This document shows, in pieces, positions 24,901 through 64,000 of a stretch of DNA of 64,000 bases. The position numbers and the translations under genes are program-made. Position 1 is the first letter of the stretch. Every line of letters begins with the position of its first letter. The DNA comes from a virus. Taxonomy: Duplodnaviria; Caudoviricetes. A model generated the notes under the pieces. The model was not told the DNA's origin and ran no database searches. It was given only the letters and a program-made list of their open reading frames with translations. The stretch covers positions 1-64,000 of the IMG/VR virus record IMGVR_UViG_3300028591_000103. One strand, written 5' to 3'.

Positions 24901-27900
24901 CTTGAATCGCTGCAGACATTGTACCAGAACAGTCCGGACGAATCTTTCTTGTATGACCAGATCGTGTTGTGATTGGTTTATCCCACACCAAGTTGCTGTA
25001 TGTCAATGCAGGATTTGTCTTTTGATACGCTTCAAAGATTTCTGCCGCAGAACGAATCAGATCTTCTTTTCCACCAGTAGCGTTGCGTAAACGAGATTTA
25101 CTCGATTTTACTCTTCGACGACCACCCTTTGGACCAACATAACGGATGACAATACCTTGATTGTAACCGTCTGCCGACATCGTTGCGACTTCAGAATCAG
25201 TCATGGATGGATCTTCATCCGGCATACATCCATGCGATAAATAATATTTAGCAAGTTTAAGGCTACGTGCTTCCTGTTGATTATCTCCGAGCGGGTTACT
25301 ACCATTGAAACCATACCAGTTACCATTCCAACAATATGCTGCCATGTGGGCATGCCATGCCAGAGTATCATCATGACAGTTTATTGCCTGAGATGGTAAT
25401 GAAATATCACCTGGTTGATAGTCACTTGGGTTCTTAAGAATAACCCAATCTTCAGATTTTGTTCCATCTCGATTAAAAATATTCGGATGTCCATCGGCGT
25501 TTTCAAGACCCCAACCGTTGTTCTTTCCGTTTGCAGAAATCATTCCGACATCACCTTGATACGTGTCGGTATATGGCTTACCACCAGACGGAAGATAATA
25601 ACCCATACGTTTCACGATTGCTGCCTGTGTACCAGTACACATCATAGAAACTTGGTCGATTGTAAAGCCATCATCAAATGTAACATTACTGATCCATGCA
25701 CCATGTGCTGAACTGGTAGCATGATCCTTAGCAGCTTTTTCGATTGCAACGAATGTTTCTGCGGCTGCTGTCAGAATGTCACCAGCTTCTCCAGTGTAAT
25801 AGTATCCGTCTTCATCATAGTATTCATCATCACCATAATCAAGTGAATCAAACCAGTTACCCATGATTTGTTCGAAGTCACCATACTTGACCTCATCTGC
25901 AGCAGATGATGAAGATTTCATGAAGGATGACATAATACCGTCTTCATTCATCGCATCATTGATAACAGATGTTGCACCAGCGTCTGAACCATCAGCAATT
26001 GATTTTACTTTGGTTAATACTTCTTCTTTTGCTGCTTGTGCCCAATACTTCATCTTTTCCTTCTCATATCTTTGACGATATGATTGATCAGATTCTTCAT
26101 GGAACTGACTTTTTCCTTGGGCATTCTTGAATAATTCGAAAGCTCTATCATCGATTTTCTTCTGTTCCTCTTCTGTCAAACCAGAAGCATCGATTACAGC
26201 TTGATTGAAATCTTCTTTTCCTTTCGCTTTCTCGAGTTTTGTTTCCAGGTCATCCGATCCTGCTGAAGTAAACATGGAGATGATACCAGTTCCAATACTC
26301 TTCAAACGGGACAACGATTCCTGAACATCCTCGTCAAATTTGTATGGTGCCTTCTCATCACCGGAACCAATTATACCCTCCATCGGTGAACCATGATATT
26401 CTTCCGGTTGTGCAACCTTTTTGTTCAATTCCTTTTCTGCGGAATCAGGATTTCCTTCAGCTTCAGCAACTGTTGTAAGTGTTCCTATCATATGTCCAGC
26501 CAATTCGACACTCTTCTGCATACCGGACTTTATGTTCTGAGCACCCGACGTGGTCATGTTCTTGCCCATATCAAATAATTTCTTACCTGTCTCAATTGTA
26601 CTGTCACTATGAGCAAACCATTTTACCAGAACACCGACAGCAATTAAATTTGCTCCAATTCCAGTAATGATAACACCCATGCCTACTTGAACAATTCCCA
26701 TGATAATCTCGAGCGTATTTCCGATTACTTGCAAGATAGGTACGATGACTGTTTGAAGAACTGCTGTGAGAGGAACGATCAGAATGTCAACCAATCCTGT
26801 TATCATTTCTAAGATTGGTTCAAGGACCTTCATAATCTGTTCAAGCAACGGACCGATCGTCTCTAGTATCGGTTTTATAAATTCGATAACAGTTTCTGCG
26901 ATTTGAACGATATAATCCATAATTTGTCTTAATACATTTGCCACTGTTTTCATGAGTGGTTTAATTGCCTTATACAAACTCTGGAAAGCTTTGTTCAAAG
27001 GCTGTAAAGCTGTTTTCAAAACTTTCATTCCGAGATCCATGATTTTCTTGACAGCGGTCAATGACATTACAACCGTCAAAACAGCCTTTGCAATTCCTGC
27101 AAGAATACTCGTAATTCCTCCAAGAATCTTACCAAGATCAAATCCCAAACCCTTTGTCTTTTTTGTTGCTTTTTTCTTCTTTGCAGCTTCTTGTTTTTGG
27201 CGTTCATCCGCTTCAGCTTCAGCAACACCGCCAAACCATTTCGAGATCGATGAAGCCAGATCATCGAGAGCTTTCACAAATGAAGCAAACACTGATGTTG
27301 CATACGGCTGCTTCAATAAATCATTAACAGCATCAGACTTTTGATCAGCCAATGATGATGCAACGATTTTTGAATGTGAACCGATCTTCTTATCAAACGC
27401 ATCAACAAATCCTTGGCCGAATTCAGTCTTTGATAATGATTCTTTCAATTTATCAAATGCTTTCGACGATTTCTTTGTTGATGATTGTCTTGATTGTAAT
27501 GCGGACTCATCCAATGATTCCATTGTAGGTGTATCAGAAGACTCTTTCGATTTACCAAATCGATCTTTGATTCTTTCTCCAATACCTTTGAATCCTTCCA
27601 TCATGACTTCTTTTCCACGTTTGATTTGATTCAAAGATTCTTTCAATTGATTTGTGACGATATTCACTTTTGATGTCAAGAAAGATTTAATACCGGAGAT
27701 TGCTCCAGAGAGAAATGTCTTTGCAAGACCGAAAACAAATAGGAGAGATTTTCCTAATAATGATTGTGGTTGTTTCTTTCGTTTTCCTCTAGAAATAACA
27801 CCATCAACGGTTTTCTTCAGTCTTGCTTTTTGTTTTGGATCATGGACGTCTTCAATTCGTGCTTGAAGTTTCACTTCATCTTCTTCTGAAGCTCCTTCAA

Positions 27901-29872: not shown

Positions 29873-29906
29873 AGAAATCACCTCTCTTTCAATCATAATA
29901 GAATCG

Positions 29907-29930
29907 GTTGGGCTCATATGAGCCCAACCT
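29907..29930 (-). terminator. Palindromic hairpin/terminator between the giant genes
   Basis: ggttgggctc atat gagcccaacc. Confidence 0.6.
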
Positions 29931-29948
29931 CATCTACGTTATATTCAG

Positions 29949-32900
29949 TCATCCCACAGATAAGCGTTCAACTTGTTGTGGGATTCCTTTATCGGAGAAT
30001 TGGTCATTTGCAGATTGATTGGATTTCGTCTGCATTCTTTGTCTTCTTTGCTGATTTTTCTCCCTCATCAGCTTTAACATTTCTTCCAATTTGTTTTCAA
30101 TTTGTACTGATCTCACATTATACGTGTTCGTCAGAATTGCATTAATTCGAGAATCAGCACTGGTAGATGTTGCTTGAGATGAATACTGATTCACAATTAC
30201 AGGCTGACCGTAACCATATCCTGTATCATATGCTTGTGGAATCACATCAGCTGTTGATGACATTGTTGTATTCATCACAAACGCAGGACCCGATGGAACA
30301 TCACCAGAAGCCATGCCTGCTTCATTCATCATCGAATGAACTGTATCCCAGTCATATTCTGGAGGTGTCGTATATCTCGTGAGACTATCCATGTATTCCT
30401 GGTTCTTACGGTTCTCTTCCTGGTCCTTCACGTATTGTTGATAAACAGGACTTTGATCCATGTTGTAATTATATCCAGTCGGTTGTGTTGGTACATACAA
30501 TGATCCATTCGGTTTTACCCAAACTTCTCCCCAACTATTACGACCTCTTAGATATACTTTGAGTGTAGATTTATCTACCCAAGTCTGATATGTTTCTCCC
30601 GCAGCATTTGTGACATATCCGCTATTACCCATATCGATCAATTCGCTTACCGATAGACCATTGATATAGCTTTTTGTATATGCACCGTCATATATTCTAT
30701 AGATCGTCTTTCTAAGAGTTTTAACAGCATCTTCGGAATACTTTGAATTCTTTACGGGAGTATTCGCTGTAACTGTGATCGGAGTTGAATATGATTCCGG
30801 AATCTTGATCTTAGGTTCATTTCCAGTCACCTTCTGACGGAACAACTGTCCTGCGATTGTTAAAGGATAATCAGCAACAAGATATGTTGTTTTCGTTCCA
30901 GTACCAGGTGCTGTGTAGATCCATTCCGAAACTTCGCTTTTATTGGCTCTCCATGTATTGTCTCCAGGTGTGTTTGTCTTTTTCCAACAACTTGCAAGAA
31001 CCTCACCGGCAGCATTATACATCTTGCCATTTTCGATTTTTGCGATTGTCATTGATGTCTTATCTTTTGCCACTGTTCCAGCAGCTGCTGCGGATGTTGC
31101 GTTTATGGATTTTCCACCCGTTTCTGAACCAGACCAATCATATGATGAATCAATAGAAGCTGAACTTGATCCGCGGGTTCTGTTCACACGGTTCAATCCA
31201 GTGATACCACTTGCCTCAGGATCAATCCATCCTTCATCCAGTAACCAGTTATACACACCGACCGCTGTACCGATATATTTACGAGGTCCTTCTACAGTAT
31301 GGATGACTTCAGGCACAAGAGCTCCACGATACCAGTGTTCAGAACCTTCGATCAAGTCGTCTGAATTCATGTAAGGACCATATCTATCACCAAAATCAAG
31401 AGCCCATCCAGATCGTCCGGTCGCTTGGTTGTAAGCTTCTAAATCAGCCTCATCATAATCATTATGTCTCACAAGAGCATATTGGTTGTCACTACCCTCA
31501 TCGAAGTATGTTCTTTGTACATATTGAAGCTGTTCTTCGATAGTATCACCGTAATCAATACTTGTGTCTTGCCAGTTCATGATACCCATTGCTTGTTGAC
31601 CATTCTTATCATGTGTAACATTAAGAAGAGATTTATCACCCCATAGTTTTTCACCACGGTCTTCCCAGATACCCATTGATGTAATAGCAGCGACTTCAGG
31701 GCCAGTCAATCCTGCAGAGAATGCTGTATCGATAAAGTCTTCGACACCAGCTTGATCTTGATAATTTGGCCAAGCGTTACCGGATTCAAGATCTCCTTCG
31801 AATGGGACTTCGCCATATGGTGCATAACCATAGTCACTTCCCTCTTCCCAATGGAAGAATGAGTGCGGGTTCATGATCTCACCGGTTTCACCATCTCGAA
31901 TTTCATAGTGCAAATGTTGTCCGTAAGATTTACCGGTGTCTCCCATGATACCGAGTTGGTCACCACCATAAACGTAGTCACCTTCCTCAACCATCGGACC
32001 AGGATCCTCACGCATATGTGCATACAGGTGAATATCTCCACCTTCGTCCTTTATCTTGACAAATGTTCCATATCCGTCGCCATATGATGTCTTTGCAGTT
32101 CCTATAACTTCACCATCGGTTGTTGCAAGTATTGGAATCTCACCACCTAAAGTGAAGTCAACACCTGCGTGTACACGTCCATCATTCGTACCTTCTGCGT
32201 CCTTATCGACAGGACGTCCACGCCATCTGAACGGACTTGACATCATTGTTCCTAATAACATCTTATCCATCCACTCACCCATGACGGTGTTTGGAACAGC
32301 CGTATCAGTCCATCCAGTAGCATCGTTTTCAAACACTGTCGGATCATACTCATCGGTGTACAAACGAGCACCCTTATCGGAATAGAAACCACTGTCAAAG
32401 TATTCATCATCATCCCAATATCCACCAGACAATTCTTCCATCATTGATTGGAAACCACCTGCTTCAACATCATCAGCAGCCTTGGTCATTGATTCGGCAA
32501 AATTGTCCATGAATCCAGGATTCTCTTCACTACCCAATGTGTAGTTGATTAACTTCGTTGCACCTTCATCAGAACCGTCAGCAACGGATTTGACCTTTGT
32601 ACGAACAGCTTCTGTTGCAGCCATTGTCCAGTATCTCTTCTTATTTCTCTCGAAACGTTTGTTATATTCAGCATCCGTTTCGCCTTCAAAACGAGGAGAT
32701 TCTTTCTCAAATAACTCACGAGCTTTCGCATCAAGTTCCGATCTTTCTTCATCAGACAGACCGGATGCATCGATTTCAGCCTGTTTGTATTTCTCTTCAT
32801 TGGTTGCTTTATCCAAGCTCTCATTGATTCTATCTGTTTCAGATCCACCGGTGAACATCGAAATGATATTACCGACAATGCTCTTCAGATTCGAGAGTGC

Positions 32901-35900
32901 ATCTTGGACTTCGTCACTGAACTTGTATGGTGCATTATCATCACCGGCACCAATGATGTTATTGAATCCAAATGCCGGTGCTGCATTACCAGAACCATAC
33001 AGACCAAGAACAGAACTAGAAGCGAGAGAAGACATCGAGCGTCTTTCAACACGTCCTGTCATCGGATTCGATACAAATGCCGTACCACCAGAAGAACCGA
33101 CAACGTTCATGAAGTGATTATTTCCACGGCGTGTTGTATAATCTGTGCCACTACCAATGACTGTGATAGGATTGTCAGGCGTTGCTTGTCTCAAAGATCC
33201 AACCGTGACTCCGCCAGGTGTCAAATTCATACCCATACTTCTAGAAGCATTGATATAACCCTGAACAGATGTGCCTGCAGAAGGATTGTATGCACCCGCA
33301 GAACTCATAGCTGTTGCCAATCCGCGAGGATCAACAGCACTACCAGAACGTCTGGAATATGCATCTGCTAATGCAACAGGACCACAACCACGTTGAGCCA
33401 TATTAAGATAATTTCCATATCTCGATTGTGCTCCATATCCCCCATAGATGGAACTGTAATCAGCATCACCCGCACCGACCAAACCTTCCATCGGAGAAGT
33501 GTTTAATGATTCTGGTATCGGTGTCCTCTTTTCACGTGTTTCTTCTTCTTTGTCCTCTTCAGTATTTACACCAAGGACATTTGCCCAAGTTTCACCAGCA
33601 AGTGTGACACTTTTCTTCATACCGTCAACAACATTATGCGCACCGGATTTTGTCATGTTCGTACCCATATCAAATAACTTCTTACCGGTTTCAGCTGTAC
33701 TATCACTTGATGTCAACCATTTTACGATTGTTCCAACTGCCATCAATACACCACCGATAGCAGTAATGATGATACCGAGACCGACTTGTACGATACCGAG
33801 CAATATTTCAAGCGTATTTCCTATCGCTCTTAATACAGGTACAACAACTGTCTGAAGAATTGCTGTTAATGGAACAAGAAGTATTTCGACCAATCCTGTT
33901 ATCATTTCCAGAATCGGACTTAATATATCCATGATTTGTTCGAGAAGCGGTCCGATTGCTTCCAACAGAGGTTTGATGAATTCAACAACAGCTTCTACAA
34001 TCTGAACAACATACTCGATGATTTGTTTCAGAACTTTCGCAACTGTTGCCATCAGAGGTTTCAAAGCGGTATACAGTTTCTGGAATGCTTTGTTCAAAGG
34101 TTGTAAAGCTGTCTTCAAGACCTTCATACCAAGATCCATAATCTTTTTAACCGCAGCCATAGAAAGAACCACAGTCAACACAGCTTTCGCGATACCCATC
34201 AGGATACCGCTCATACCACCAAGAATTTTACCAAGATCGAAACCAATACCTTTCTTACCAGCAGATGCAGCTGCTCCTGCTGCAGCACCAGAAGTTGCGG
34301 CCGACGTTGCTTTTGCTGCGGTTATATCAGTTGCTGATATTCCTGGCATTGTCGTAGCGGAATCAATAGATGGCATTGATGGAGTTACACCTGCTGGAGT
34401 TGTAGGCATTGTACTACCATATCCTGCAGGAATATTTCGTGCAGTCAGATCCGTTCCGCCTGCACTTTCACCACCACCACCAATAGACTGCATTTCGGTA
34501 CTACCACCACTTGCTGTGGTACTTGTACCTCCACTGCTACTACCAGCAGATTTCGTTTCCAGTGATTTCACACCATTTTCGAAAACAGTCTTTAGATTCA
34601 TGATGCCTGATAACATTCTTGAGAGAACCGTTTCACCTGCACCAGATTTACCGTCTTTACTCTTTAACAGATCAAAGATTCCTTTCGTGGATTGATCTGC
34701 AAGAGTCTGTGGTTTCATTTCCCTCTTACTTTCGAAAGCTGACATGAAACCTTGACCGAATTCTGTTTGTTTGAACTTGTCTCCTAATTTGGAGAAACTG
34801 TCCATAAATCCAGAACGTCGAGCACCCTGTTGTCCAGGAACCTCAATCGATTCCATTGTTGGATTTGCTACAGTTCCGCCTTGTCCTTGTTGCGGAACAG
34901 TGATACTATCCATCGTCGGAGATGTACCTTTGCGAGCACCAATATTATGTGCAGCATTGCTTGCTTTTGCTTTCATAATATCTGCTTTTCCGATGGATTC
35001 CATATCATTCTCTCCAGCAGGTTCTCCGAACATATAATTCCGGAATCTACCGAAGAGACCTGCAGATTCATCAGAACCCATGAAACCTTCTTTGATCGAT
35101 TGTCCGCCACGAACAATCATATTTCCAGAAGATTTCAAACTATTGATGATAGGTGCCAACAAGGTCTTTCCGAGAGATGTAACAAACGTTTTAGCTTTAC
35201 CGATAAATCCACCAAACGCAGTCTTTACAATTCCCCAACCCCACGTCAGAATCTTACCGAGTTTTGATGAAGCCGGTTTCTTGGAATCGCTACGCTTCAA
35301 AGTTCCTTCCACAATTGCATTCAATCGTGCTTTTAACTTTGGATTCTTGATTTCGGAAATCTGTGTGGATAATGCAGCCATGTCTTCTTTCGTGTCACCA
35401 TCTGCTGCGGACGCTGTCATTGCTTGAAGAACAGCATTTGCAATGTCACGATCTTCTTGATCTGTGTCTGCACTATTCATCTCATTCTGTGCAAGAGCTT
35501 TGTTGACTTCGATGGAGGCTGTTGCTTTTCCACGATCAGCGACATTTCCAAGATCATCAAATGTTTTATTGATTTCTCCACTGATAATATCAGAAACTTT
35601 GCCCAATGGATTTGTTACCCAGTCTTTGATTTGCTGACCGGTATCAGATTGGCCCTGTCCGCCTTGTTGTCCACCACCAGTACCACCGTCATTACCACCA
35701 CCGTCATCTCCACCAGTTCCAGCAGGTGGTGTGTTGACAGTTGCACCTTTCGTGACAGTAGCAGTTGCAGATGGTTTTGATGTTCCCGTGGAAGAAATGT
35801 GTTTAACATGCATTTTGCTGAATGCTTTCTTTCGAGAACCATTCACAGCAAATACATTGATACCGCGATTCAATATCTCAAAGATTGACGCAACATAATC

Positions 35901-37658
35901 CAATGTCGTATCAGTAGACTTCTTGAAAGTATCACCAATGGATCCAAGAACTTCAGACTGACGCATTCTCTCCAGATCTGCTTTTCGTTCAGCTTCAGCA
36001 GAAGCACTGTCAGTTTTCTTAAATCCTTTTGGTATATCTTCTTCTTTGATGAGACCCTGCTCAATCAACTCACCATATGTGAGTGTAGATTTTCCACTCA
36101 CGTTCTTGAGATATTTATTAGCAACATCATCAATCATTTGATCCGTAATTGGACCGATGTCATGTGTATCGTGTGCATTCTGTGCATATTTTTTCAGATT
36201 GTTGTGTGATTTATCAATCTGCTGTTGTAATGTTATGACAAACGAAGTTCTCATAGACTTATCTGTCAATAATTTTGATGTAATAAAATCAACAGCTTCT
36301 TGCCATTCAGCACGAGACTTTCCATCAGTATGATTGCGAGCTAAAGCATCAACAACACGATCATTTATTTCTTGGATACCACCATCTTCAAATGTCTCTT
36401 GAGGTATTGTGACGTTGCCTTTTCTACGGAAGTGATTTATATAATAATACGTGAAAATACGTTGTGCTTTGTTAATCATCGATGAGTCAAGTTTCGTACC
36501 GGACGAAACACGTTTGCCTTCAACATACCGGGTATTGAATCCAGATGTTATAGAACCTCTCAACACATTCGCAAATCCGGATTCTCGTTCTGTGGTAAGA
36601 GTTCCTTCAGATGATACCCATAATGTTTGACCAGTAACAGCTTCGGTGATACGTCTCAAATATCCAGGGATGATATCAATGATTGTTTTTCGTGTCATTC
36701 CATCAAACACGGCTTTATCGCGATTATATTGATTTTCAATGAATAAACTATAATCTTGATTTGCTCGTCTAGATGTATGATCACCGAATAATTTCTTGAA
36801 TAGTTTATTGTTCAATAACTTCGTCAAGAAATTATTTTGTGCATTGGCTATCTTGGTATCAATATCCTCTTGGAGTTGTTCGTATGTTTTGCCACCGATT
36901 TTGATTTTATCGCCGAACATTCCAGGAATCATACCTGCTAATGAACCAAGCATCTGTGCATTTGATTCTCCACCCATAGAACCCATAGACAGAAAACTTT
37001 TGAGCATGGATATGGGCATTGCAATCATCTGTAATTTATCGCTGGCTGTGCTCTTAGCAAAATTAAATACAGATCCAAATGTCAGATTACCACTGGCATC
37101 AAATGGTCCATTGTTTCGACTTTGTTGCTTTTTCGATATTGTCGTCAGTTCAATCAACTTATCGAGTTTTGAACCAATGCTTGTCAAAGATGAATTGATA
37201 TTGCCTAAAGATGCAATAATTTCGGATGAACGAGTATTCATCGTTGAGATGATTTCAGATGCAGTCATTGCAGAAGCTTCAGTCTGTTTTCCAGCAATCT
37301 CATACATGGAACTGACTTGACTTTTTGCAATATCTTTCATGGACTCATAATCCAATACTTTCGCTTTTGGCTCATCTTCTTTTTCATCAGCACCAAATTG
37401 GAAACCTGCATCAAAATCATCATCGTCATTATCAAATGCAGAATTTTGTCCAAGCTCATCACTACGATGGAACAACGAATCTGTGACTTTCTTGAATTGT
37501 GCACTATTGCGAATTTCACGATACTTTTCGACAGCGGTTCTTCCACCAGTCATCAATGTATCTTTGATATTTTCTGCATCTGATTTCAATTCACTGATTG
37601 ATTGCGGTACCAACGATGATCCGAAACCCTTTGCAAAATCCAATAAAAGATTCGGCAT
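29949..37658 (-). CDS. Giant tail protein B (paralog of A) with C39-like peptidase, M23 peptidase and lysozyme-like domains
   Basis: Shared MPNLL.DF start and colinear blocks with protein A; RGCGPVALA...HFMNVVG...VSNP; HAGVDF...YAHM...HLHYEIR; AAITSMGIWE...MGIMNW. Confidence 0.8.
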   Translation of the reverse strand: MPNLLLDFAKGFGSSLVPQSISELKSDAENIKDTLMTGGRTAVEKYREIRNSAQFKKVTDSLFHRSDELGQNSAFDNDDDDFDAGFQFGADEKEDEPKAKVLDYESMKDIAKSQVSSMYEIAGKQTEASAMTASEIISTMNTRSSEIIASLGNINSSLTSIGSKLDKLIELTTISKKQQSRNNGPFDASGNLTFGSVFNFAKSTASDKLQMIAMPISMLKSFLSMGSMGGESNAQMLGSLAGMIPGMFGDKIKIGGKTYEQLQEDIDTKIANAQNNFLTKLLNNKLFKKLFGDHTSRRANQDYSLFIENQYNRDKAVFDGMTRKTIIDIIPGYLRRITEAVTGQTLWVSSEGTLTTERESGFANVLRGSITSGFNTRYVEGKRVSSGTKLDSSMINKAQRIFTYYYINHFRRKGNVTIPQETFEDGGIQEINDRVVDALARNHTDGKSRAEWQEAVDFITSKLLTDKSMRTSFVITLQQQIDKSHNNLKKYAQNAHDTHDIGPITDQMIDDVANKYLKNVSGKSTLTYGELIEQGLIKEEDIPKGFKKTDSASAEAERKADLERMRQSEVLGSIGDTFKKSTDTTLDYVASIFEILNRGINVFAVNGSRKKAFSKMHVKHISSTGTSKPSATATVTKGATVNTPPAGTGGDDGGGNDGGTGGGQQGGQGQSDTGQQIKDWVTNPLGKVSDIISGEINKTFDDLGNVADRGKATASIEVNKALAQNEMNSADTDQEDRDIANAVLQAMTASAADGDTKEDMAALSTQISEIKNPKLKARLNAIVEGTLKRSDSKKPASSKLGKILTWGWGIVKTAFGGFIGKAKTFVTSLGKTLLAPIINSLKSSGNMIVRGGQSIKEGFMGSDESAGLFGRFRNYMFGEPAGENDMESIGKADIMKAKASNAAHNIGARKGTSPTMDSITVPQQGQGGTVANPTMESIEVPGQQGARRSGFMDSFSKLGDKFKQTEFGQGFMSAFESKREMKPQTLADQSTKGIFDLLKSKDGKSGAGETVLSRMLSGIMNLKTVFENGVKSLETKSAGSSSGGTSTTASGGSTEMQSIGGGGESAGGTDLTARNIPAGYGSTMPTTPAGVTPSMPSIDSATTMPGISATDITAAKATSAATSGAAAGAAASAGKKGIGFDLGKILGGMSGILMGIAKAVLTVVLSMAAVKKIMDLGMKVLKTALQPLNKAFQKLYTALKPLMATVAKVLKQIIEYVVQIVEAVVEFIKPLLEAIGPLLEQIMDILSPILEMITGLVEILLVPLTAILQTVVVPVLRAIGNTLEILLGIVQVGLGIIITAIGGVLMAVGTIVKWLTSSDSTAETGKKLFDMGTNMTKSGAHNVVDGMKKSVTLAGETWANVLGVNTEEDKEEETREKRTPIPESLNTSPMEGLVGAGDADYSSIYGGYGAQSRYGNYLNMAQRGCGPVALADAYSRRSGSAVDPRGLATAMSSAGAYNPSAGTSVQGYINASRSMGMNLTPGGVTVGSLRQATPDNPITVIGSGTDYTTRRGNNHFMNVVGSSGGTAFVSNPMTGRVERRSMSSLASSSVLGLYGSGNAAPAFGFNNIIGAGDDNAPYKFSDEVQDALSNLKSIVGNIISMFTGGSETDRINESLDKATNEEKYKQAEIDASGLSDEERSELDAKARELFEKESPRFEGETDAEYNKRFERNKKRYWTMAATEAVRTKVKSVADGSDEGATKLINYTLGSEENPGFMDNFAESMTKAADDVEAGGFQSMMEELSGGYWDDDEYFDSGFYSDKGARLYTDEYDPTVFENDATGWTDTAVPNTVMGEWMDKMLLGTMMSSPFRWRGRPVDKDAEGTNDGRVHAGVDFTLGGEIPILATTDGEVIGTAKTSYGDGYGTFVKIKDEGGDIHLYAHMREDPGPMVEEGDYVYGGDQLGIMGDTGKSYGQHLHYEIRDGETGEIMNPHSFFHWEEGSDYGYAPYGEVPFEGDLESGNAWPNYQDQAGVEDFIDTAFSAGLTGPEVAAITSMGIWEDRGEKLWGDKSLLNVTHDKNGQQAMGIMNWQDTSIDYGDTIEEQLQYVQRTYFDEGSDNQYALVRHNDYDEADLEAYNQATGRSGWALDFGDRYGPYMNSDDLIEGSEHWYRGALVPEVIHTVEGPRKYIGTAVGVYNWLLDEGWIDPEASGITGLNRVNRTRGSSSASIDSSYDWSGSETGGKSINATSAAAAGTVAKDKTSMTIAKIENGKMYNAAGEVLASCWKKTNTPGDNTWRANKSEVSEWIYTAPGTGTKTTYLVADYPLTIAGQLFRQKVTGNEPKIKIPESYSTPITVTANTPVKNSKYSEDAVKTLRKTIYRIYDGAYTKSYINGLSVSELIDMGNSGYVTNAAGETYQTWVDKSTLKVYLRGRNSWGEVWVKPNGSLYVPTQPTGYNYNMDQSPVYQQYVKDQEENRKNQEYMDSLTRYTTPPEYDWDTVHSMMNEAGMASGDVPSGPAFVMNTTMSSTADVIPQAYDTGYGYGQPVIVNQYSSQATSTSADSRINAILTNTYNVRSVQIENKLEEMLKLMREKNQQRRQRMQTKSNQSANDQFSDKGIPQQVERLSVG

Positions 37659-37709
37659 ATCATTCATCTCCTTTCATGAGAATTTGAGGTATATAAATTA
37701 ACATAGAGA

Positions 37710-58688: not shown

Positions 58689-59435
58689 ATGCGTAATACT
58701 CGTTGTCCTTTTTGTATCAAAATTTTTAATGACAAACATCAATTCTGTCATCACATAGCCAACGTTCATAATGATCAAACTCCAGAGGACGCTGATCCTC
58801 TGGAGTTTGCTTATTCTTTATTGGTTCATAAACCGATTGGAAGAATCTGTGTCATGTGTCGCAATAACAAAGTGAATTTCAATCAACAGAGTTTGAAGTA
58901 TGACAGAATTTGTTCAGATCCAAAGTGCAAAGAAGCTTATGTCAAAATGATGAAAGCTAGAATGGTGAAAGTCCATGGACAGGAGCATCTTTTAAATGAT
59001 GCCGATATGCAACGAAAAATGATTTATAATCATCCAAACGCACGGGATTTCGTTTGGGATGAAGATCACAAATTTCGGGTGATCGGTACTTATGAAGAAG
59101 ATTTCTTGAAGAAATTGAGATCTATTGGATGGAGTCCAAACGATGTAATTGCACCGTCTCCAAATAATTATTGGTACAAATGGAAAGATGGTACATTGCA
59201 TCTATATATTCCCGATTTCTATATCCCTTCTTTGTCTCTTGAGGTTGAAATCAAAGAATCAGATAATCATCATCCGAGAATGGAACATGCTCGGGAAATT
59301 GAACATCTGAAAGATCAACGTTTAAGAGATGAAGAAAAGAAAACCCATATCCATTATATCAAGATCGTTGATAAAAACTATGACGAATTCATGCGGGATT
59401 ATGTTAAATCCGATGAAAATAAACCGGAGGATTAA
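58689..59435 (+). CDS. Zinc-finger + TnsA-like PD-(D/E)XK endonuclease
   Basis: CPFC...H...H and CVMC...C...C fingers; YIPDFYIPSLSLEVEIK. Confidence 0.8.
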   Translation: MRNTRCPFCIKIFNDKHQFCHHIANVHNDQTPEDADPLEFAYSLLVHKPIGRICVMCRNNKVNFNQQSLKYDRICSDPKCKEAYVKMMKARMVKVHGQEHLLNDADMQRKMIYNHPNARDFVWDEDHKFRVIGTYEEDFLKKLRSIGWSPNDVIAPSPNNYWYKWKDGTLHLYIPDFYIPSLSLEVEIKESDNHHPRMEHAREIEHLKDQRLRDEEKKTHIHYIKIVDKNYDEFMRDYVKSDENKPED

Positions 59436-59439
59436 TTAT

Positions 59440-60684
59440 ATGAATGAACTTTTGCAATGCATTGATCAAATCGATCAATCTGTGAATGATGCTGAAATCA
59501 ATGTTCTCGAAGCTCTTATCGGATCATATGATAAAGCATTAATGATACTTCAAGAATGTGAAGTCTCTGATTATTCCGCCTTCGAAATTTTCCAGGAAGG
59601 TGAAAAGTGGGATAAGTTTAAGGAAGATACCAAAGCTCCCATTCTTGGAAATAAGGGTGAGAGTCTCATCAAACGTATTCTTATGATTATACCACGTTTG
59701 ATCCAAAAGATCGCTGCGCTTATAGCAAAAGCGTTTACAAGAAACAAAGCATCGAAACAAAAAATGGAAAACGATGTTCAAACATTGAAACAAGCGGTAC
59801 AAACTTCTGAACCGTTTGAAAAATTTGAACCAAATGAGTTTGAACCGAACAAATTTGAAGCTGAACCACAACAACAACCACAACAACAACCACAGCAACA
59901 ACCACAGATGCAAACAATCGAACCCCCGAAAAGAGATGAATCAGAACCACAAGCTTCTGGGAATGAAGAAACGAATTTAGAAGATGTTATTCTTCATGTC
60001 AAAGGTGCGACATTTTTCGGTCAAAAATTATGGGATCTTTCGAAGATTTTTGATAAGGATTCTGATTTAGAATCGCCAGCGATAAAAGTATCATTTTCAA
60101 TCCCAATGGAGTTATACGGCAAACAGGAAGCGAATGATAAAGTAAGGGAAGCACTTCATCAAGTTGATCAAACTATTAAACGTTTAGAGTATGAATATAA
60201 ACTTTTAGAACAGGGAAGGAAAGAAAGTCGCGAATTTCGTGTAAGAATCGGTGATGCTGTTGAAGTTTTTGAAAAAATGAAAGCGGTCTTTAATGAGAGA
60301 CATGACAAAAGAAACCAAACAATCAACACACTCAATAGTATCATTAAAGATCTTGACAAAGCAAATGCTGAATTCAAAAAGAAATACGACGCTAATGCTA
60401 TGAATTTCCTTCGTGGATTTCAAGCTAGTTCAATGGTCATGTCAGAAGAACAATGGGACGAATATAATCGTAAAGAAAATGCGTGTCTTCAGCTTTGGTT
60501 AAATTATACACAAGGAGTGTCCGAAATCGTATCATTGATGTCGAATATAACAGCTACTGAGATGAGAGTGTGGGATAATAACTACAAAGTCGTCATGGAT
60601 GCTGTCAATGAGATTAAAAATAATAATCAATCGGATTTGGGCAAAACCAAAACCATTAATTTGTCCAAACGTAATACCAACTAA
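59440..60684 (+). CDS. Internal head protein (paralog family with 38759-39823)
   Basis: GGAGG RBS before ATG 59440; ILQEC and IFQEG motifs; FEP and PQQQ repeats. Confidence 0.7.
   Translation: MNELLQCIDQIDQSVNDAEINVLEALIGSYDKALMILQECEVSDYSAFEIFQEGEKWDKFKEDTKAPILGNKGESLIKRILMIIPRLIQKIAALIAKAFTRNKASKQKMENDVQTLKQAVQTSEPFEKFEPNEFEPNKFEAEPQQQPQQQPQQQPQMQTIEPPKRDESEPQASGNEETNLEDVILHVKGATFFGQKLWDLSKIFDKDSDLESPAIKVSFSIPMELYGKQEANDKVREALHQVDQTIKRLEYEYKLLEQGRKESREFRVRIGDAVEVFEKMKAVFNERHDKRNQTINTLNSIIKDLDKANAEFKKKYDANAMNFLRGFQASSMVMSEEQWDEYNRKENACLQLWLNYTQGVSEIVSLMSNITATEMRVWDNNYKVVMDAVNEIKNNNQSDLGKTKTINLSKRNTN
59806..59910 (+). repeat. Short coding tandem repeats (FEPNK-like, PQQQ x3)
   Basis: EPFEKFEPNEFEPNKFEAEPQQQPQQQPQQQPQ. 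Confidence 0.7.
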
Positions 60685-60711
60685 ATACTATTTAAAAGGA
60701 GCTGAATGATT

Positions 60712-60837
60712 ATGGCAAGACCACGTAAAACGGAAAGACCGGAAACAGTGCTTGATGCAATGGGTCCGGACATGAATGAAGAAACCTCCAACGGCAGAGG
60801 TGAAGATGAAGTAGAAGAGGAGGAAACCAAAACATGA
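60712..60837 (+). CDS. 41-aa acidic peptide coupled to the amidase
   Basis: AAAAGGAG RBS; stop overlaps the amidase start (ATGA). Confidence 0.6.
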   Translation: MARPRKTERPETVLDAMGPDMNEETSNGRGEDEVEEEETKT

Positions 60838-62867
60838 GCAACTTCACAAATTCTCCACTCGTGTCATACACACGAATTTCACCGAACAGAAACTCCCCCA
60901 GAACAGAGGACAAGATCACAAAGATTATTGTCCATCATATGGCAGGTGTTGGTTCTGTTGAATCATTTGGAGAAATCGTAGCATCAGAAGCAAGACAGAT
61001 GTCTGCAAACTATGCAATCGGAAATGACGGTCGCATCGGTCTTTATTGTGAAGAGAAAGACCGTTGCTGGTGTTCTTCTTCCAGATGGGCAGACAACCGC
61101 GGTATCGCGATCGAAGTATCCAATTCGAAACTCGGTGAACCATGGCCAATTTCTGACAAAGCTTGGAAATCATTGGTCGAACTCTGCGCAGATATCTGCA
61201 AGAGAAATGGTATTCCAAAAATGACATATACAGGAGATACCAACGGTGTACTGATGTTTCACCGTTGGTTTGCTCCAACAGGCTGTGTTCCAATTAACAC
61301 GACTGAAGTATTGACTCGTGAAGGTTGGGTTCCTGTCAGAGATATTCAAATCGGTGAAATCATCGCAACTGTATCTCCAAAGGATTTCTCAATTCATTTT
61401 GATCGGGTTGAGAATCTGGTTCCTGTTCATAAGGACACAGTATTCACAACAAATGACATGAGTGTCACAAAAGAACACAGAGTTTTGTTCTCTGACATGA
61501 CAGGATGTGGATATCGTCTGGATGAATATCAAAAGATTTGTGATCGTTCATTCACGATTCCATCAGCAGGTTCATATGGTGCAAAAGGAATGGATATCAC
61601 TTCATCTGAAATGATATTCTTACTTGAGATGCAACGTGTCGGTGTGTATGATGAAAATAAGAAGTCTCTTGAATTCACATACATCATGGAATCCAAAGAA
61701 CAATACTTCTATGGATTACTCCAGAATCTCGGATATGAATTTACGAAACATCAGGATGATTTGGGACCGGTCAGATTTTGTGTCACCGACCCAAGAGCAT
61801 GGGAGCTTTGTAAATATTATCTTTCCGGAAAAGACTTCAACTGGAAATGGTTGGAAATGAATCCAACACAATTCTCCTATTTCATTTATAAAGCAACATC
61901 TCATGTTGATACTGGATGGAGTAGAAAATACACATCGGATTCCATGGTGAATGTCGATATCGTTCAAGCACTGTGCGCACTTAATGAACGTGGAACAAAA
62001 TTCATCTCTTCTGAGAAGACATTATATATTGATAAAGCTTTCCGTATTATCGAACCTGGTAAGAAAACATCTACAGAAGATGATGTCGATGTTGCATGTG
62101 TTACCGTGAAATCCGGATGCTTCCTGATGAGACAAAACAATGTCACAACCATAACTGGAAATTGTCCCGGTGAGTATATCTTCTCACGTGCACAACAGCT
62201 CTGTGATGAAGTCAACGCATTACTCCCCGAAGTGGATCCTCCGGTTATTCCGACAGATTTTGTTCCTGGTGCATTGGTGAGCATTGCACCTGACGCAGTG
62301 TATTACAATGGTGCGGCGATTCCGGATTGGGTGAAAGCTCAAAGATGGTATATCGATAGTATCTCCGGAGATCGAGCAGTTCTCGGAAAGAATGAAACTG
62401 GTAATTCAGATATTCATTCCGCTGTCAGTACAAAGTATCTGACACTGATTCAGAATGCTGCAGCACACGAATCTGTCCGAACCGTGTCATATCTCACAAG
62501 ACTCCAGAAGGGTGAACCGATTTACTCTATTTCTCAGAACAAAGTAAAACGGATTTCGATTATCACTGTTGGAAGTATTTATACTATTATTGAAGAAAAT
62601 ACAATCGATGGTGTTAAATATGGAAAACTGAAATCTGGCGCAGGTTGGGTCAAACGCGGTGTTGACGAAAAGGTTGTTGATAAAACGATCAATGTCGGTG
62701 ATACTGTCGTACCAATCACGAACAGATTATATGGTGACGAAGGAACCTTTATAATTCTTGAGAATTCGTATAAGGTACTCCGCGTGGATGGAAACCGTGT
62801 TGTGATTTCTTCAGATGGAAAGAATGCCACGGCAGCAGTCAATGCAATGAATCTTAAGAAAATTTAA
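60834..62867 (+). CDS. N-acetylmuramoyl-L-alanine amidase endolysin (Amidase_2) with intein and C-terminal cell-wall-binding modules
   Basis: IIVHHMAG, SANYAIG, AIEVSN, HRWFAPTG|CPG motifs; YGKLKSGAGW module. Confidence 0.9.
   Translation: MSNFTNSPLVSYTRISPNRNSPRTEDKITKIIVHHMAGVGSVESFGEIVASEARQMSANYAIGNDGRIGLYCEEKDRCWCSSSRWADNRGIAIEVSNSKLGEPWPISDKAWKSLVELCADICKRNGIPKMTYTGDTNGVLMFHRWFAPTGCVPINTTEVLTREGWVPVRDIQIGEIIATVSPKDFSIHFDRVENLVPVHKDTVFTTNDMSVTKEHRVLFSDMTGCGYRLDEYQKICDRSFTIPSAGSYGAKGMDITSSEMIFLLEMQRVGVYDENKKSLEFTYIMESKEQYFYGLLQNLGYEFTKHQDDLGPVRFCVTDPRAWELCKYYLSGKDFNWKWLEMNPTQFSYFIYKATSHVDTGWSRKYTSDSMVNVDIVQALCALNERGTKFISSEKTLYIDKAFRIIEPGKKTSTEDDVDVACVTVKSGCFLMRQNNVTTITGNCPGEYIFSRAQQLCDEVNALLPEVDPPVIPTDFVPGALVSIAPDAVYYNGAAIPDWVKAQRWYIDSISGDRAVLGKNETGNSDIHSAVSTKYLTLIQNAAAHESVRTVSYLTRLQKGEPIYSISQNKVKRISIITVGSIYTIIEENTIDGVKYGKLKSGAGWVKRGVDEKVVDKTINVGDTVVPITNRLYGDEGTFIILENSYKVLRVDGNRVVISSDGKNATAAVNAMNLKKI
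61284..62162 (+). mobile_element. Intein (293 aa) with degenerate LAGLIDADG-like insert
   Basis: Starts CVPINTTEVLTREGW; block B VTKEHRV; ends VACVTVKSGCFLMRQNNVTTITGN followed by Cys+1. Confidence 0.9.
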
Positions 62868-63258: not shown

Positions 63259-63351
63259 CATATGAAATTAAGCTTTTTGCCATATATACATTATTTTTTC
63301 GGATGACGGAGAACGATTGGTCAACCAATTTTGTGTCAGGAGGATTTAATA

Positions 63352-64000
63352 ATGGATGATAGAAAAATGAATTCCAGACCACCGAAACCTCTGAAGTATT
63401 CGGAGGATACTGTACTATTCGATGTACGATATTCTCGTAGTCCGGAATCTTTTGAGGTTATCACATGGAATCCAATTACAAGACAATTGGAAGTCACTTA
63501 TGAAGAACCGATTATTGATATCTGGTTTTTGAAGGAAGAATTTCGCACAAACGATTATCAGATATCCCAAGTAGAAATGGATAAATGTTATCCGTTCTAT
63601 TGTAAACCGTCCCAAGTTTCAAAAGTAATTGCACAAGAGGTTGGTGGGAAATGGGCTGATATATATGAAGAAAATAAAGAGGTAATGAGCAAAAATGATT
63701 TATCCAGAAAGATGTGCGAATGTCCATGGGTATTTAAAGCGGATTTTGATCCACCGGTATATTTCAGAATGCGGTGGTTTGAACAATACGGCAGTAAGAT
63801 TGATATGACGAAAGTCTCTGAGTCATATCTTGATATTGAGGTTGATTCCATTGATAGAATCGTCAATGCCAGAGATATCAATGATTCATCGAATCCAATC
63901 AATGCAGTTTCTTTGATTTTACCACACGTCAATATTTGCGCATTGTTAGTATTGGCTCCGCGTCCCAGACATAAACTTGATAAAAAATTCTGGGGATTGT
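63352..64000 (+). CDS. Family B DNA polymerase, N-terminal/3'-5' exonuclease region (partial; absent from ORF track)
   Basis: AGGAGG RBS; open frame to the window edge; YLDIEVDS ExoI motif followed by NPINAVSLI. Confidence 0.75.
   Translation, partial: MDDRKMNSRPPKPLKYSEDTVLFDVRYSRSPESFEVITWNPITRQLEVTYEEPIIDIWFLKEEFRTNDYQISQVEMDKCYPFYCKPSQVSKVIAQEVGGKWADIYEENKEVMSKNDLSRKMCECPWVFKADFDPPVYFRMRWFEQYGSKIDMTKVSESYLDIEVDSIDRIVNARDINDSSNPINAVSLILPHVNICALLVLAPRPRHKLDKKFWGL

What the first reader, a model, noticed from the sequence alone, without database searches (positions are those of the whole stretch)
61284..62165. Intein inserted at the zinc-ligand cysteine of an endolysin
Seen: a 293-aa intein splits HRWFAPTG|CPG; splicing restores the T7-lysozyme-like H...CP motif, whose Cys is a zinc ligand in Amidase_2 enzymes. 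The penultimate residue is Gly (TGN) rather than the usual His. The LAGLIDADG-position helices (FLLEMQRVG; FIYKATSHVDTG) look degenerate. Known: inteins mostly occupy replication, nucleotide-metabolism and terminase proteins, so a lysin host is uncommon. Inference: lysin activity depends on splicing, and a retained, non-homing intein could act as a timing or redox/metal switch for lysis.
Basis: partly seen in the sequence, partly recalled or inferred. Interest (0 to 1): 0.8.

Follow-up and report, generated by a model that had tools for sequence, protein, structure and literature searches.

The report
Stranded intein inside a phage endolysin
The cell-wall-cutting enzyme of this uncultured large phage is interrupted, just before its zinc-binding cysteine, by a genuine self-splicing intein that has lost its mobility enzyme and is inherited vertically; nothing found here shows that it times lysis.

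Summary
ORF 60834-62867 (677 aa) is an Amidase_2 lysin. A 293-aa insert (61284-62162) sits between zinc ligand His143 and Cys444.

- **It is an intein.** With a 103-sequence alignment the insert folds as Hint plus LAGLIDADG at pLDDT 97. The best structural match is TliVMA (Z 21). Cys1, TxxH, Gly-Asn and Cys+1 are conserved.
- **Excision restores the enzyme.** Removing the insert in silico gives a colinear match to intein-less relatives and restores the H-x7-CPG motif.
- **The site is a hotspot.** The insert belongs to a family of at least 247 clusters. 150 of 175 members with clear junctions occupy this same site.
- **Relatives still move.** Copies with intact LAGLIDADG aspartates are scattered, next to intein-less alleles 97-99% identical in the extein.
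- **The window's clade is stranded.** It has Val at both catalytic positions, forms one vertically inherited clade with a single loss, and its endonuclease domain is still under purifying selection.
- **The active site is unusual.** It matches the AceL NrdHF class 3 intein (Arg B:11, Cys F:4, Thr-Gly-Asn) but keeps Cys1.

The timing, redox or metal switch is unsupported. I found no lysin intein in the papers or deposited phage genomes searched. This scan had already found the same thing on other genomes.

The parts
60834..62867 (+). Lysin precursor ORF, 677 aa (P0001): N-extein + intein + C-extein
   Evidence: ORF list and translation. Pfam Amidase_2 E 1.3e-15, residues 26-131 = profile 3-114 of 131. 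It is the only Amidase_2 in the 151.6-kb record.
60834..61283 (+). N-extein, residues 1-150: most of the Amidase_2 domain, with zinc ligands His34 (60933-60935) and His143 (61260-61262)
   Evidence: The family profile aligns to PlyG 2L47, PlyL 1YB0, XlyA 3HMB and T7 lysozyme 1LBA, ending at H-x7-C. The zinc ligands of T7 lysozyme are His17/His122/Cys130 (PMC4573324).
61284..62162 (+). Intein, 293 aa (P0002)
   Evidence: AlphaFold2 with alignment A2: pLDDT 97.1, pTM 0.93. Foldseek E 4.6e-12 to TliVMA intein 7qsu. VIA Z 21.0 over 284 of 293 residues.
61284..61568 (+). Hint N-lobe (intein 1-95). Carries Cys1 (61284-61286) and block B: Thr62 (61467-61469), His65 (61476-61478), Arg66 (61479-61481), Val67.
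   Evidence: Conservation across 199 family inteins: C1 196, T62 198, H65 199, R66 180. Block B aligns to S-P-N-H-R-M of AceL NrdHF 6zgq.
61581..62048 (+). LAGLIDADG-fold domain (intein about 100-255) with both catalytic Asp replaced: Val119 (61638-61640) and Val208 (61905-61907)
   Evidence: Fold matches I-DmoI, I-SceI, I-Tsp061I and the endonuclease domains of PI-SceI and PI-PfuI. Asp at these two columns in 131 and 132 of 199 relatives; Val, Ile, His or Glu in the window's clade. Purifying selection.
62067..62162 (+). Hint C-lobe (intein 262-293). Carries block F Cys272 (62097-62099), Arg283-Gln284, and block G Thr291-Gly292-Asn293 (62154-62162).
   Evidence: C272 in 197 of 199, R283 197, G292 198, N293 192. 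The same C / T-G-N pattern occurs in AceL NrdHF (C124, T144, G145, N146; PMC7891396).
62163..62165 (+). Cys444: the +1 splicing nucleophile and, after splicing, the third zinc ligand (H-x7-C-P-G)
   Evidence: +1 is Cys in 185 of 199 family inteins. CP follows in 149 of 150 inteins at this site. It aligns to Cys137 of PlyL.
62163..62864 (+). C-extein, residues 444-677: end of the amidase domain, a linker and two repeated putative wall-binding modules
   Evidence: 228 homologues of this part, both intein-bearing (about 675-745 aa) and intein-less (about 377-441 aa). The in-silico spliced 384-aa product matches the intein-less profile as one colinear domain, hmm 2-384, E 2.6e-157.
60706..60837 (+). 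43-aa acidic upstream ORF whose stop overlaps the lysin ATG (ATGA). It is homologous to an N-terminal extension that is fused in frame to the lysin in many relatives.
   Evidence: translation; P0006, P0012, P0020 and others start MAKPRKTE...; L005 and L007 fused; L004, L008 and L010 not.

Best explanation
This is a splicing-competent intein stranded in a phage endolysin. It carries a LAGLIDADG domain whose endonuclease is dead.

The gene is translated as a 677-aa precursor. In it, 293 intein residues separate zinc ligand His143 from Cys444, so the amidase site cannot form (inferred).

The intein then removes itself autocatalytically:
1. The Gly150-Cys151 bond is activated by block B Thr212/His215 and attacked by Cys151 (intein Cys1). 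It could instead be attacked by the block F Cys422; which of the two acts is undecided.
2. The N-extein is passed to Cys444.
3. Asn443 cyclises. This is probably helped by Arg216 (block B:11) in place of the missing penultimate His, as shown for the AceL NrdHF intein.
4. An S-to-N shift makes the Gly150-Cys444 peptide bond. This restores H-x7-C-P-G and yields a 384-aa mature lysin.

The ancestors of this intein were mobile elements that home specifically into this codon of Amidase_2 lysin genes, and relatives still do so. In the window's phage lineage the element became fixed and lost both catalytic aspartates. It has since been inherited vertically. It can only be lost by exact deletion, because the site is indispensable. 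Selection therefore keeps the whole intein, dead domain included, folded and splicing. Splicing is most likely constitutive.
For: - **Intein fold at high confidence:**
- **Exact in-frame insertion relative to intein-less homologues:** in-silico excision gives one colinear match to their profile. Intein-less P0210 covers the Amidase_2 profile 2-131 of 131, whereas the window stops at position 114.
- **Splicing residues nearly invariant in 199 family inteins:**
- **Insertion site equals the zinc-ligand Cys:**
- **Mobile relatives:** 17 inteins with intact D-G motifs need 17 changes on the extein tree, no better than shuffled labels. They pair with intein-less alleles 97-98.7% identical in the extein, and the differences cluster at the junction.
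- **Window clade is vertical:** 58 of 59 degenerate inteins form one clade (SH-aLRT 100) with a single intein-less member. Intein and extein identities correlate, r 0.68.
- **Both LAGLIDADG Asp are Val:**
- **The dead domain is still constrained:** mean pairwise identity is 0.58 against 0.51 for the Hint N-lobe and 0.53 for the wall-binding part, and intein lengths stay within 290-298 aa. pN is 0.17-0.20 against pS about 0.7 in window-versus-relative comparisons at 67-70% overall identity, with omega about 0.1 where it can be estimated.
- **Gly-penultimate inteins splice fast:** PMC5050341; PMC7891396.
Against: - Splicing itself was not observed. Everything rests on sequence, a predicted structure and phylogeny.
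- Pfam and NCBIfam intein models do not recognise the insert.
- Block F:4 is Cys, not the Asp of standard class 1 inteins, so the first chemical step is uncertain.
- Purifying selection on a catalytically dead endonuclease domain, as strong as on the working domains, is more than the classical homing-cycle model predicts. It could mean the domain has a function.
- Synonymous sites are saturated, so omega values are rough.
- The record is only about 56% complete, so a second lysin cannot be excluded.
Confidence: 0.72

Rival explanations
1. Conditional protein splicing. The retained intein has been co-opted as a post-translational gate. The precursor accumulates inactive, and splicing is triggered or blocked by redox state, zinc or temperature, which sets when active lysin appears.
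For: - The intein separates two zinc ligands, so splicing is needed for activity.
- Three conserved cysteines (Cys1, Cys F:4, Cys+1) could form a disulphide trap or bind zinc.
- The N-extein plus intein Cys1 reproduces the H-x7-C spacing. The profile's intein Cys1 aligns to the zinc Cys of PlyL, so zinc could in principle hold Cys1 in the precursor.
- The intein has been kept intact under purifying selection for a long time, with only one loss among 59.
- Redox- and stress-sensitive inteins exist, for example in mycobacterial DnaB (PMC6195587, listed).
Against: - No result here shows any condition-dependence.
- Retention is equally explained by the need for an exact deletion in an indispensable codon.
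- The two characterised inteins with penultimate Gly splice efficiently. [quoted passage not shown]
- Mobile relatives with live-looking endonucleases carry the same catalytic residues, so these residues are family traits, not adaptations of the fixed clade.
- Intein-less alleles are common in sister lineages, so lysis does not need the gate.
- No holin or lysis cassette lies next to the gene.
Confidence: 0.12
2. The LAGLIDADG domain is not dead weight. Either it still cuts or nicks DNA with non-canonical residues, or it has been exapted, for example as a DNA-binding or regulatory module or as a chaperone for the lysin. That would be why it is conserved.
For: - In the type A clade the domain is conserved as well as or better than the Hint N-lobe and the wall-binding modules, and has no length decay.
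- The stretch 185-240 is very strongly conserved (W187, W189, TQFSYF, W212, R214, Y216, N223, QA).
- Peripheral residues shared with the intact relatives (Q117, K183, Q196, N223, D225) are kept.
- Some type A members read H-E-D-G in the second motif, which could keep one acidic residue.
Against: - The first motif has a hydrophobic residue (Val or Ile) at the catalytic position in almost all of the clade.
- Conservation is highest in helices (core packing) and lowest in the beta strands that would contact DNA. That fits selection for fold only.
- The phylogenetic pattern shows no homing.
Confidence: 0.1
3. The insert does not splice. It is either a permanent inserted domain in a lysin that works around it, or the gene is an inactive relic.
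For: Curated intein HMMs do not reach threshold. No experiment is available.
Against: - Cys1, Thr/His of block B, Cys F:4, Gly-Asn and Cys+1 are invariant in the 29 aligned relatives and nearly so in 199 family members.
- There are no stops or frameshifts in any of 59 diverged copies, and omega is about 0.1.
- A 293-aa insert between two zinc ligands eight residues apart is hard to reconcile with an active site.
Confidence: 0.03

Closest known systems
Endonuclease-bearing inteins with solved structures: TliVMA and PhoVMA (PDB 7qsu, 7qss, 7qst), PI-PfuI (1dq3), PI-SceI (1vde, 1ef0)
   Same: Same two-domain architecture: a Hint splicing domain with a LAGLIDADG domain inserted between its lobes. 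VIA Z 21.0-17.8 over 273-284 of 293 residues; Foldseek E 4.6e-12 to 1e-6.
   Different: Only 10-14% sequence identity. It is smaller, with no extra DNA-recognition region. The host is a phage lysin, not an ATPase, polymerase or reductase. Both catalytic Asp of the endonuclease are Val. Block F:4 is Cys and the penultimate residue is Gly.
AceL NrdHF naturally split class 3 intein (PDB 6zgq; Hoffmann et al. 2020, PMC7891396)
   Same: It is the best solved mini-intein match (Z 17.7, rmsd 2.3 over 140 residues). It is also the best PDB sequence hit of the family profile (E 2.5e-5; E 1.7e-3). The non-canonical active-site signature is the same: His-Arg-(Met/Val) in block B, Cys at F:4, Thr-Gly-Asn at the C-terminus, and no block F or penultimate His. 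It probably also comes from a phage.
   Different: AceL NrdHF starts with Ala and uses the block F Cys as an obligate nucleophile. It is split, with a GIY-YIG gene between the halves, and sits in a ribonucleotide reductase. The window's intein is contiguous, has a LAGLIDADG domain and keeps Cys1 (196 of 199 in the family).
Mycobacteriophage Bethlehem gp51 (RDF) intein and other phage class 1 inteins without penultimate His (Kelley et al. 2016, PMC5050341)
   Same: A phage intein with Cys1 and penultimate Gly. The Gly form splices completely and Gly-to-His slows it.
   Different: Different host protein. The paper describes an endonuclease-inactivating mutation that had to be recovered because of toxicity, so that endonuclease appears active. 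No sequence relationship was tested here.
Amidase_2 / PGRP-type N-acetylmuramoyl-L-alanine amidases: PlyG (2L47), PlyL (1YB0), XlyA (3HMB), T7 lysozyme (1LBA)
   Same: The extein is a member. Pfam PF01510 is above its cut-off and the profile matches at E 7e-24 to 5e-7 (range). The His...His-x7-Cys zinc site is present after in-silico splicing.
   Different: None of the solved or deposited enzymes carries an intein. The C-terminal wall-binding modules match no Pfam family at E up to 1.
CD27L / CTP1L clostridial endolysins with built-in autoproteolytic 'trigger and release' (PMC4110038)
   Same: A precedent for a self-processing step built into a Gram-positive phage endolysin.
   Different: That is cleavage between domains of an Amidase_3 lysin, not protein splicing, and no intein is involved. 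It is cited only as an analogy and I did not examine it beyond the abstract.

Membership tests
Intein (Hint-fold protein-splicing element) | Hint fold | tested here: met
   Model pLDDT 97. Matches solved inteins and the Hedgehog Hint domain at Z 14-21.
Intein (Hint-fold protein-splicing element) | Exact in-frame insertion into a conserved host protein, with intein-less homologues that are colinear across the site | tested here: met
   The in-silico spliced product gives one colinear match, hmm 2-384, while the precursor splits into hmm 2-149 and hmm 146-384.
Intein (Hint-fold protein-splicing element) | Nucleophile at position 1, block B Thr-x-x-His, C-terminal Asn, nucleophile at +1 | tested here: met
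   Cys151, Thr212-x-x-His215, Asn443 and Cys444 are present. They are invariant in 29 relatives and near-invariant in 199.
Intein (Hint-fold protein-splicing element) | Penultimate His (block G:6), which is usual but not obligatory | tested here: not met
   Gly442, and Gly in 198 of 199 family members. Functional exceptions are documented.
Intein (Hint-fold protein-splicing element) | Demonstrated excision and extein ligation | not testable with these tools
   Needs expression followed by SDS-PAGE and mass spectrometry.
Class 1 (standard) intein | Cys/Ser at position 1 starts splicing; block F:4 is usually Asp | tested here: inconclusive
   Cys1 is present and conserved in 196 of 199. F:4 is Cys in 197 of 199, not Asp. 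The usual residue is stated in PMC2807308.
Class 3 intein | No Cys/Ser/Thr at position 1 | tested here: not met
   Cys151 is present. Only 3 of 199 family members start with Pro (P0121, P0125, P0135).
Class 3 intein | WCT triplet: Trp B:12, Cys F:4, Thr G:5 | tested here: inconclusive
   The window has Val217 / Cys422 / Thr441. Cys and Thr are met and Trp is not. AceL NrdHF is a proven class 3 intein with Met-Cys-Thr, so Trp is not absolute.
LAGLIDADG homing endonuclease (active) | LAGLIDADG alpha-beta fold with two motif helices | tested here: met
   Foldseek matches to I-DmoI, I-SceI, I-Tsp061I and WhiA for the central domain. Model helices 107-119 and 194-204.
LAGLIDADG homing endonuclease (active) | An acidic catalytic residue at the end of each LAGLIDADG helix | tested here: not met
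   Val119 and Val208 sit where 131 and 132 of 199 relatives have Asp.
LAGLIDADG homing endonuclease (active) | Sporadic distribution produced by homing | tested here: not met
   The window's type forms one clade with one loss, while the intact type is scattered.
Amidase_2 endolysin | Match to PF01510 above the curated cut-off | tested here: met
   58.3 bits against a cut-off of 26.
Amidase_2 endolysin | Zinc ligands His, His-x7-Cys | tested here: met
   His34, His143 and Cys444 are contiguous only after excision.
Amidase_2 endolysin | Role in host lysis (adjacent holin, lytic activity) | tested here: inconclusive
   The closest annotated relative is an endolysin next to a holin. In the window the neighbours are an endonuclease-like gene, an unknown 451-aa ORF and a DNA polymerase fragment.

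The most novel reading that the evidence does not exclude
This very large family of phage lysin inteins may be a mechanistic hybrid. It has the active site of the unusual AceL NrdHF type of class 3 intein (His-Arg in block B, an obligate block F cysteine, Thr-Gly-Asn) yet keeps Cys1. The block F cysteine would then be a required nucleophile or relay, with two or three thiols acting in series. If so, the fixed, endonuclease-dead copies such as this one could be sensitive to thiol oxidation or zinc, and would make lysin maturation conditional.
Probability: 0.2. Interest if true: 0.8.

Novelty: new member of a known kind. Interest (0 to 1): 0.55.

Why it matters
- **A new kind of intein host.** Inteins are mainly known from replication, repair, nucleotide-metabolism and packaging proteins. 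Here a large, partly still mobile family targets the zinc-ligand codon of phage cell-wall amidases. This enzyme class is widely mined as antibacterial 'enzybiotics', and annotation pipelines would list these genes as odd 680-aa amidases with an unexplained middle.
- **Practical consequence.** Anyone expressing such a lysin needs to know it must splice, or should clone the excised form.
- **A natural series of the homing cycle.** The family contains mobile copies next to empty alleles, one lineage where the element is fixed and its endonuclease is dead but still conserved, and one precise loss.
- **A test system for splicing chemistry.** Its catalytic signature lies between class 1 and class 3, with natural Pro1 variants. 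That makes it suitable for asking how the two mechanisms interconvert.

Tried and rejected
- **Curated models miss the intein.** Pfam and NCBIfam scans of the precursor and of the insert alone gave only Hint_2 at E 0.18. The negative searches of the phage record with PF14890 and PF14528 therefore say little about other inteins in the genome.
- **Single-sequence searches and folds failed.** phmmer of the insert against PDB sequences found nothing real.
- **Intein-less relatives against PDB.** phmmer of P0210 found nothing. A profile of intein-less relatives matched only AmpDh2 over residues 53-126. The broader profile A2 was needed to reach PlyL and T7 lysozyme.
- I used IMG/VR loci instead, where pS is 0.6-0.8.
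- **Group I intron or other RNA element in the region:** none found.
- **Recent acquisition judged by composition:** rejected. Intein GC is 38.2%, against 39.9% for the window.
- **A second Amidase_2 gene in the record:** none found.
- **Membership in class 3:** rejected on Cys1.
- **Literature.** Six full-text searches for intein with endolysin, amidase, peptidoglycan hydrolase or lysin found no lysin intein (and reads 22-24, 30, 31, 79, 80). One paper states that none of 224 mycobacteriophage lysin A genes has an intein.
- **Not possible here.** Model coordinates are not exposed, so I could not measure distances between Cys1, His65, Cys272 and Cys+1.
Full report
**What is there**

Window 60834-62867 (+) is one open frame of 677 codons.
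- Residues 26-131 match Pfam Amidase_2 (E 1.3e-15), but only up to profile position 114 of 131.
- Codon 151 (TGT, 61284) starts a 293-residue segment that ends ...Thr-Gly-Asn at 62162. It is followed by Cys-Pro-Gly.
- Two intein-less homologues from deposited phage records read straight through this point as H-x7-C-P-G.
His description of the junction, the penultimate Gly and the two degenerate motif helices is correct.

**The insert is an intein**

Curated HMMs do not recognise it, and a single-sequence fold of the precursor failed. With an alignment of 103 database relatives, the insert alone folds at pLDDT 97.1.
- The model matches endonuclease-bearing inteins over its whole length: TliVMA Z 21.0 with 284 of 293 residues aligned, PhoVMA 19.6, PI-PfuI 18.4, PI-SceI about 18.
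- Its central domain matches free LAGLIDADG enzymes (I-DmoI, I-SceI).
- A profile of intein-less relatives matches the in-silico excised 384-aa product as one colinear domain (hmm 2-384, E 2.6e-157). On the precursor the match splits into hmm 2-149 and hmm 146-384.
- Intein-less P0210 covers the Amidase_2 profile from 2 to 131.

**The site**

The family profile aligns to PlyG, PlyL, XlyA and T7 lysozyme, ending at H-x7-C.
- In T7 lysozyme the zinc ligands are His17, His122 and Cys130. In the Ts2631 lysin the equivalent H30N, H131N and C139S variants lose activity (PMC4573324).
- In the window these ligands are His34, His143 and Cys444.
- The intein therefore lies between two zinc ligands that are eight residues apart in the mature enzyme. 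That the precursor is inactive is an inference, but a strong one.
- Because the intein also starts with Cys, the N-extein plus Cys1 mimics the H-x7-C spacing. I note this without drawing a conclusion.

**The family**

- A word-indexed search found 57 clusters with the same insert, all in Amidase_2 proteins, at 97-33% identity and on contigs up to 277 kb.
- An exhaustive HMMER search of 1.84 billion representatives found 247 clusters at E up to 1e-3.
- Of 175 members with cleanly defined junctions, 150 sit at H-x7-|C, and 149 of these are followed by Pro.
- Others sit at two further amidase sites, sometimes with two inteins in one lysin (P0061, P0062). Others are in an Amidase_5 lysin (P0146) and in family A DNA polymerases.
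- Across 199 inteins the catalytic columns are: Cys1 196 (Pro 3), Thr B:7 198, His B:10 199, Arg B:11 180, Val/Met/Ile B:12 (never Trp), Cys F:4 197, Thr or Val G:5, Gly G:6 198, Asn G:7 192 (Gln 7), Cys+1 185.

**Mobile relatives and a stranded clade**

In most of the family the two LAGLIDADG helices end in Asp-Gly (QADG, YDG). In the window both Asp are Val (Q-R-V-G and H-V-D-T), and the whole close clade lacks them.

I built a tree of exteins only: 138 lysins sharing the window's C-terminal part, with the inteins cut out.
- The 17 inteins with intact motifs need 17 gains or losses, no better than shuffled labels.
- These 17 sit next to intein-less alleles whose exteins are 97-98.7% identical. 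The few differences are concentrated in the residues just before the insertion point. That is what co-conversion during homing, or target-site resistance, looks like.
- By contrast, 58 of 59 degenerate inteins form one clade (SH-aLRT 100) that contains a single intein-less member, P0210.
- Within that clade, intein and extein identities correlate (r 0.68).
- The window's intein is therefore fixed, vertically inherited and non-homing.

**The dead domain is not decaying**

- In 55 clade members the LAGLIDADG domain has mean pairwise identity 0.58. The Hint N-lobe has 0.51 and the wall-binding modules about 0.53. Intein lengths stay within 290-298 residues.
- At the DNA level I compared the window with seven IMG/VR loci, five of them distinct. 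In comparisons with relatives at 67-70% overall identity the domain shows pN 0.17-0.20 against pS about 0.7. Omega is about 0.1 where it can be estimated, no higher than for the exteins. Synonymous sites are saturated, so the ratios are rough, but pN is clearly far below pS.
- Conservation is strongest in helices and weakest in the beta strands that would face DNA. This fits selection for a stable fold rather than for DNA recognition, but does not prove it.
- My reading: any mutation that unfolds the domain would block splicing of the only amidase in the record, so the passenger is kept in shape. An acquired function is the main alternative.

**Chemistry**

The active-site signature is not that of a textbook class 1 intein.
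- It equals that of the AceL NrdHF intein (His68-Arg69-Met70, Cys124, Thr144-Gly145-Asn146). For that intein, Arg69 helps Asn cyclisation in place of the missing histidines, G145H abolishes activity, and splicing finishes within minutes under many conditions (PMC7891396).
- AceL NrdHF is also the closest solved mini-intein by structure (Z 17.7, rmsd 2.3 over 140 residues) and the best PDB hit by sequence.
- AceL NrdHF is class 3: it starts with Ala and its block F Cys is the first nucleophile. The window's intein keeps Cys1, as do 98% of its family, so it fails the defining feature of class 3.
- Three natural members start with Pro and have everything else intact. This shows the block F route is probably available in this family.
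- Inteins with both an N-terminal nucleophile and the block F Cys were noted as unresolved cases in the paper that defined class 3 (PMC2807308).
- Which cysteine attacks first here is open.

**The switch idea**

Nothing I could compute supports it, and three things speak against it.
- The 'unusual' residues are family traits shared with mobile copies.
- The two characterised Gly-penultimate inteins are efficient splicers.
- Sister lineages lyse without the intein.

It is not excluded. Three conserved thiols and a zinc site next to the splice junction make a redox or zinc effect chemically plausible. Only an experiment can tell.

**Context**

The window belongs to a 151.6-kb IMG/VR virus record estimated at 56% complete. 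Relatives lie on 220-280-kb contigs. The lysin's neighbours are an endonuclease-like gene, an unknown 451-aa ORF and the start of a DNA polymerase gene, not a holin. Intein GC content is ordinary for the window, and no RNA family is present in the region.

**Novelty**

- None of 50,697 deposited phage genomes has this intein in a lysin. The only hits there are 24-27% identical inteins in reductase, primase-helicase and methylase genes.
- Six full-text searches found no lysin intein.
- Earlier agents of this scan reported the same kind of element on other genomes. One of those notes (a Pro1 member read as class 3) led me to PMC7891396. I checked the claims that I reuse.

Noticed in passing
window 60706-60837 (+), overlapping the lysin start at 60834: A 43-aa acidic ORF (starts MIMARPRKTE...) ends in ATGA, overlapping the lysin ATG. 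Its homologue is fused in frame as an N-terminal extension of the lysin in many relatives (P0006, P0012, P0020, L005, L007). In the window's subclade it is a separate, translationally coupled ORF, or is joined by a frameshift. Its function is unknown.
   Followed up: partly
database relatives P0061 (1037 aa) and P0062 (983 aa): Single Amidase_2 lysins that carry two inteins of this family. One follows an earlier conserved His (junctions ...ISIH| and ...TAWH|). The other is at the H-x7-|C site.
   Followed up: partly
database relatives P0121, P0125, P0135: Family members at the same lysin site that start with Pro instead of Cys. They keep block F Cys, Gly-Asn and Cys+1, so they are candidate natural class 3 versions of this intein.
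   Followed up: partly
database relatives P0146, P0177, P0188: Related inteins (24-31% identity) in an Amidase_5 lysin and in family A DNA polymerases fused to uracil-DNA glycosylase. Several polymerase copies end in Gly-Gln instead of Gly-Asn.
   Followed up: partly
pairs P0218/P0217, P0235/P0225, P0220/P0223: Intein-bearing and intein-less alleles are 97-99% identical overall. They differ at four to six of the eight residues just upstream of the insertion point (HQMFTATS against HCFFSFTS or HYFYTSTG). These are either co-conversion tracts or endonuclease-resistant target variants.
   Followed up: partly
window 21920-29917 (-) and 29949-37667 (-): Two adjacent giant ORFs of 2665 and 2572 aa. 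The first matches tape-measure PHROGs and has an endolysin-like segment near residues 2333-2494, so it is probably a virion-associated wall hydrolase.
   Followed up: no
window 59329-60684 (+): A 451-aa ORF with no PHROG match that contains a Gln/Pro repeat (QQQP four times, around 59840-59900). It lies immediately upstream of the lysin.
   Followed up: no
window 63331-63999 (+), runs off the window: The start of a DNA polymerase gene (phrog_3011), directly downstream of the lysin. This is an unusual neighbourhood for an endolysin.
   Followed up: no
database proteins P0065 and P0144 (297 aa each): Predicted proteins that consist of the intein alone, lacking Cys1 and/or the terminal Asn. They may be free-standing derivatives or gene-calling fragments.
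   Followed up: no
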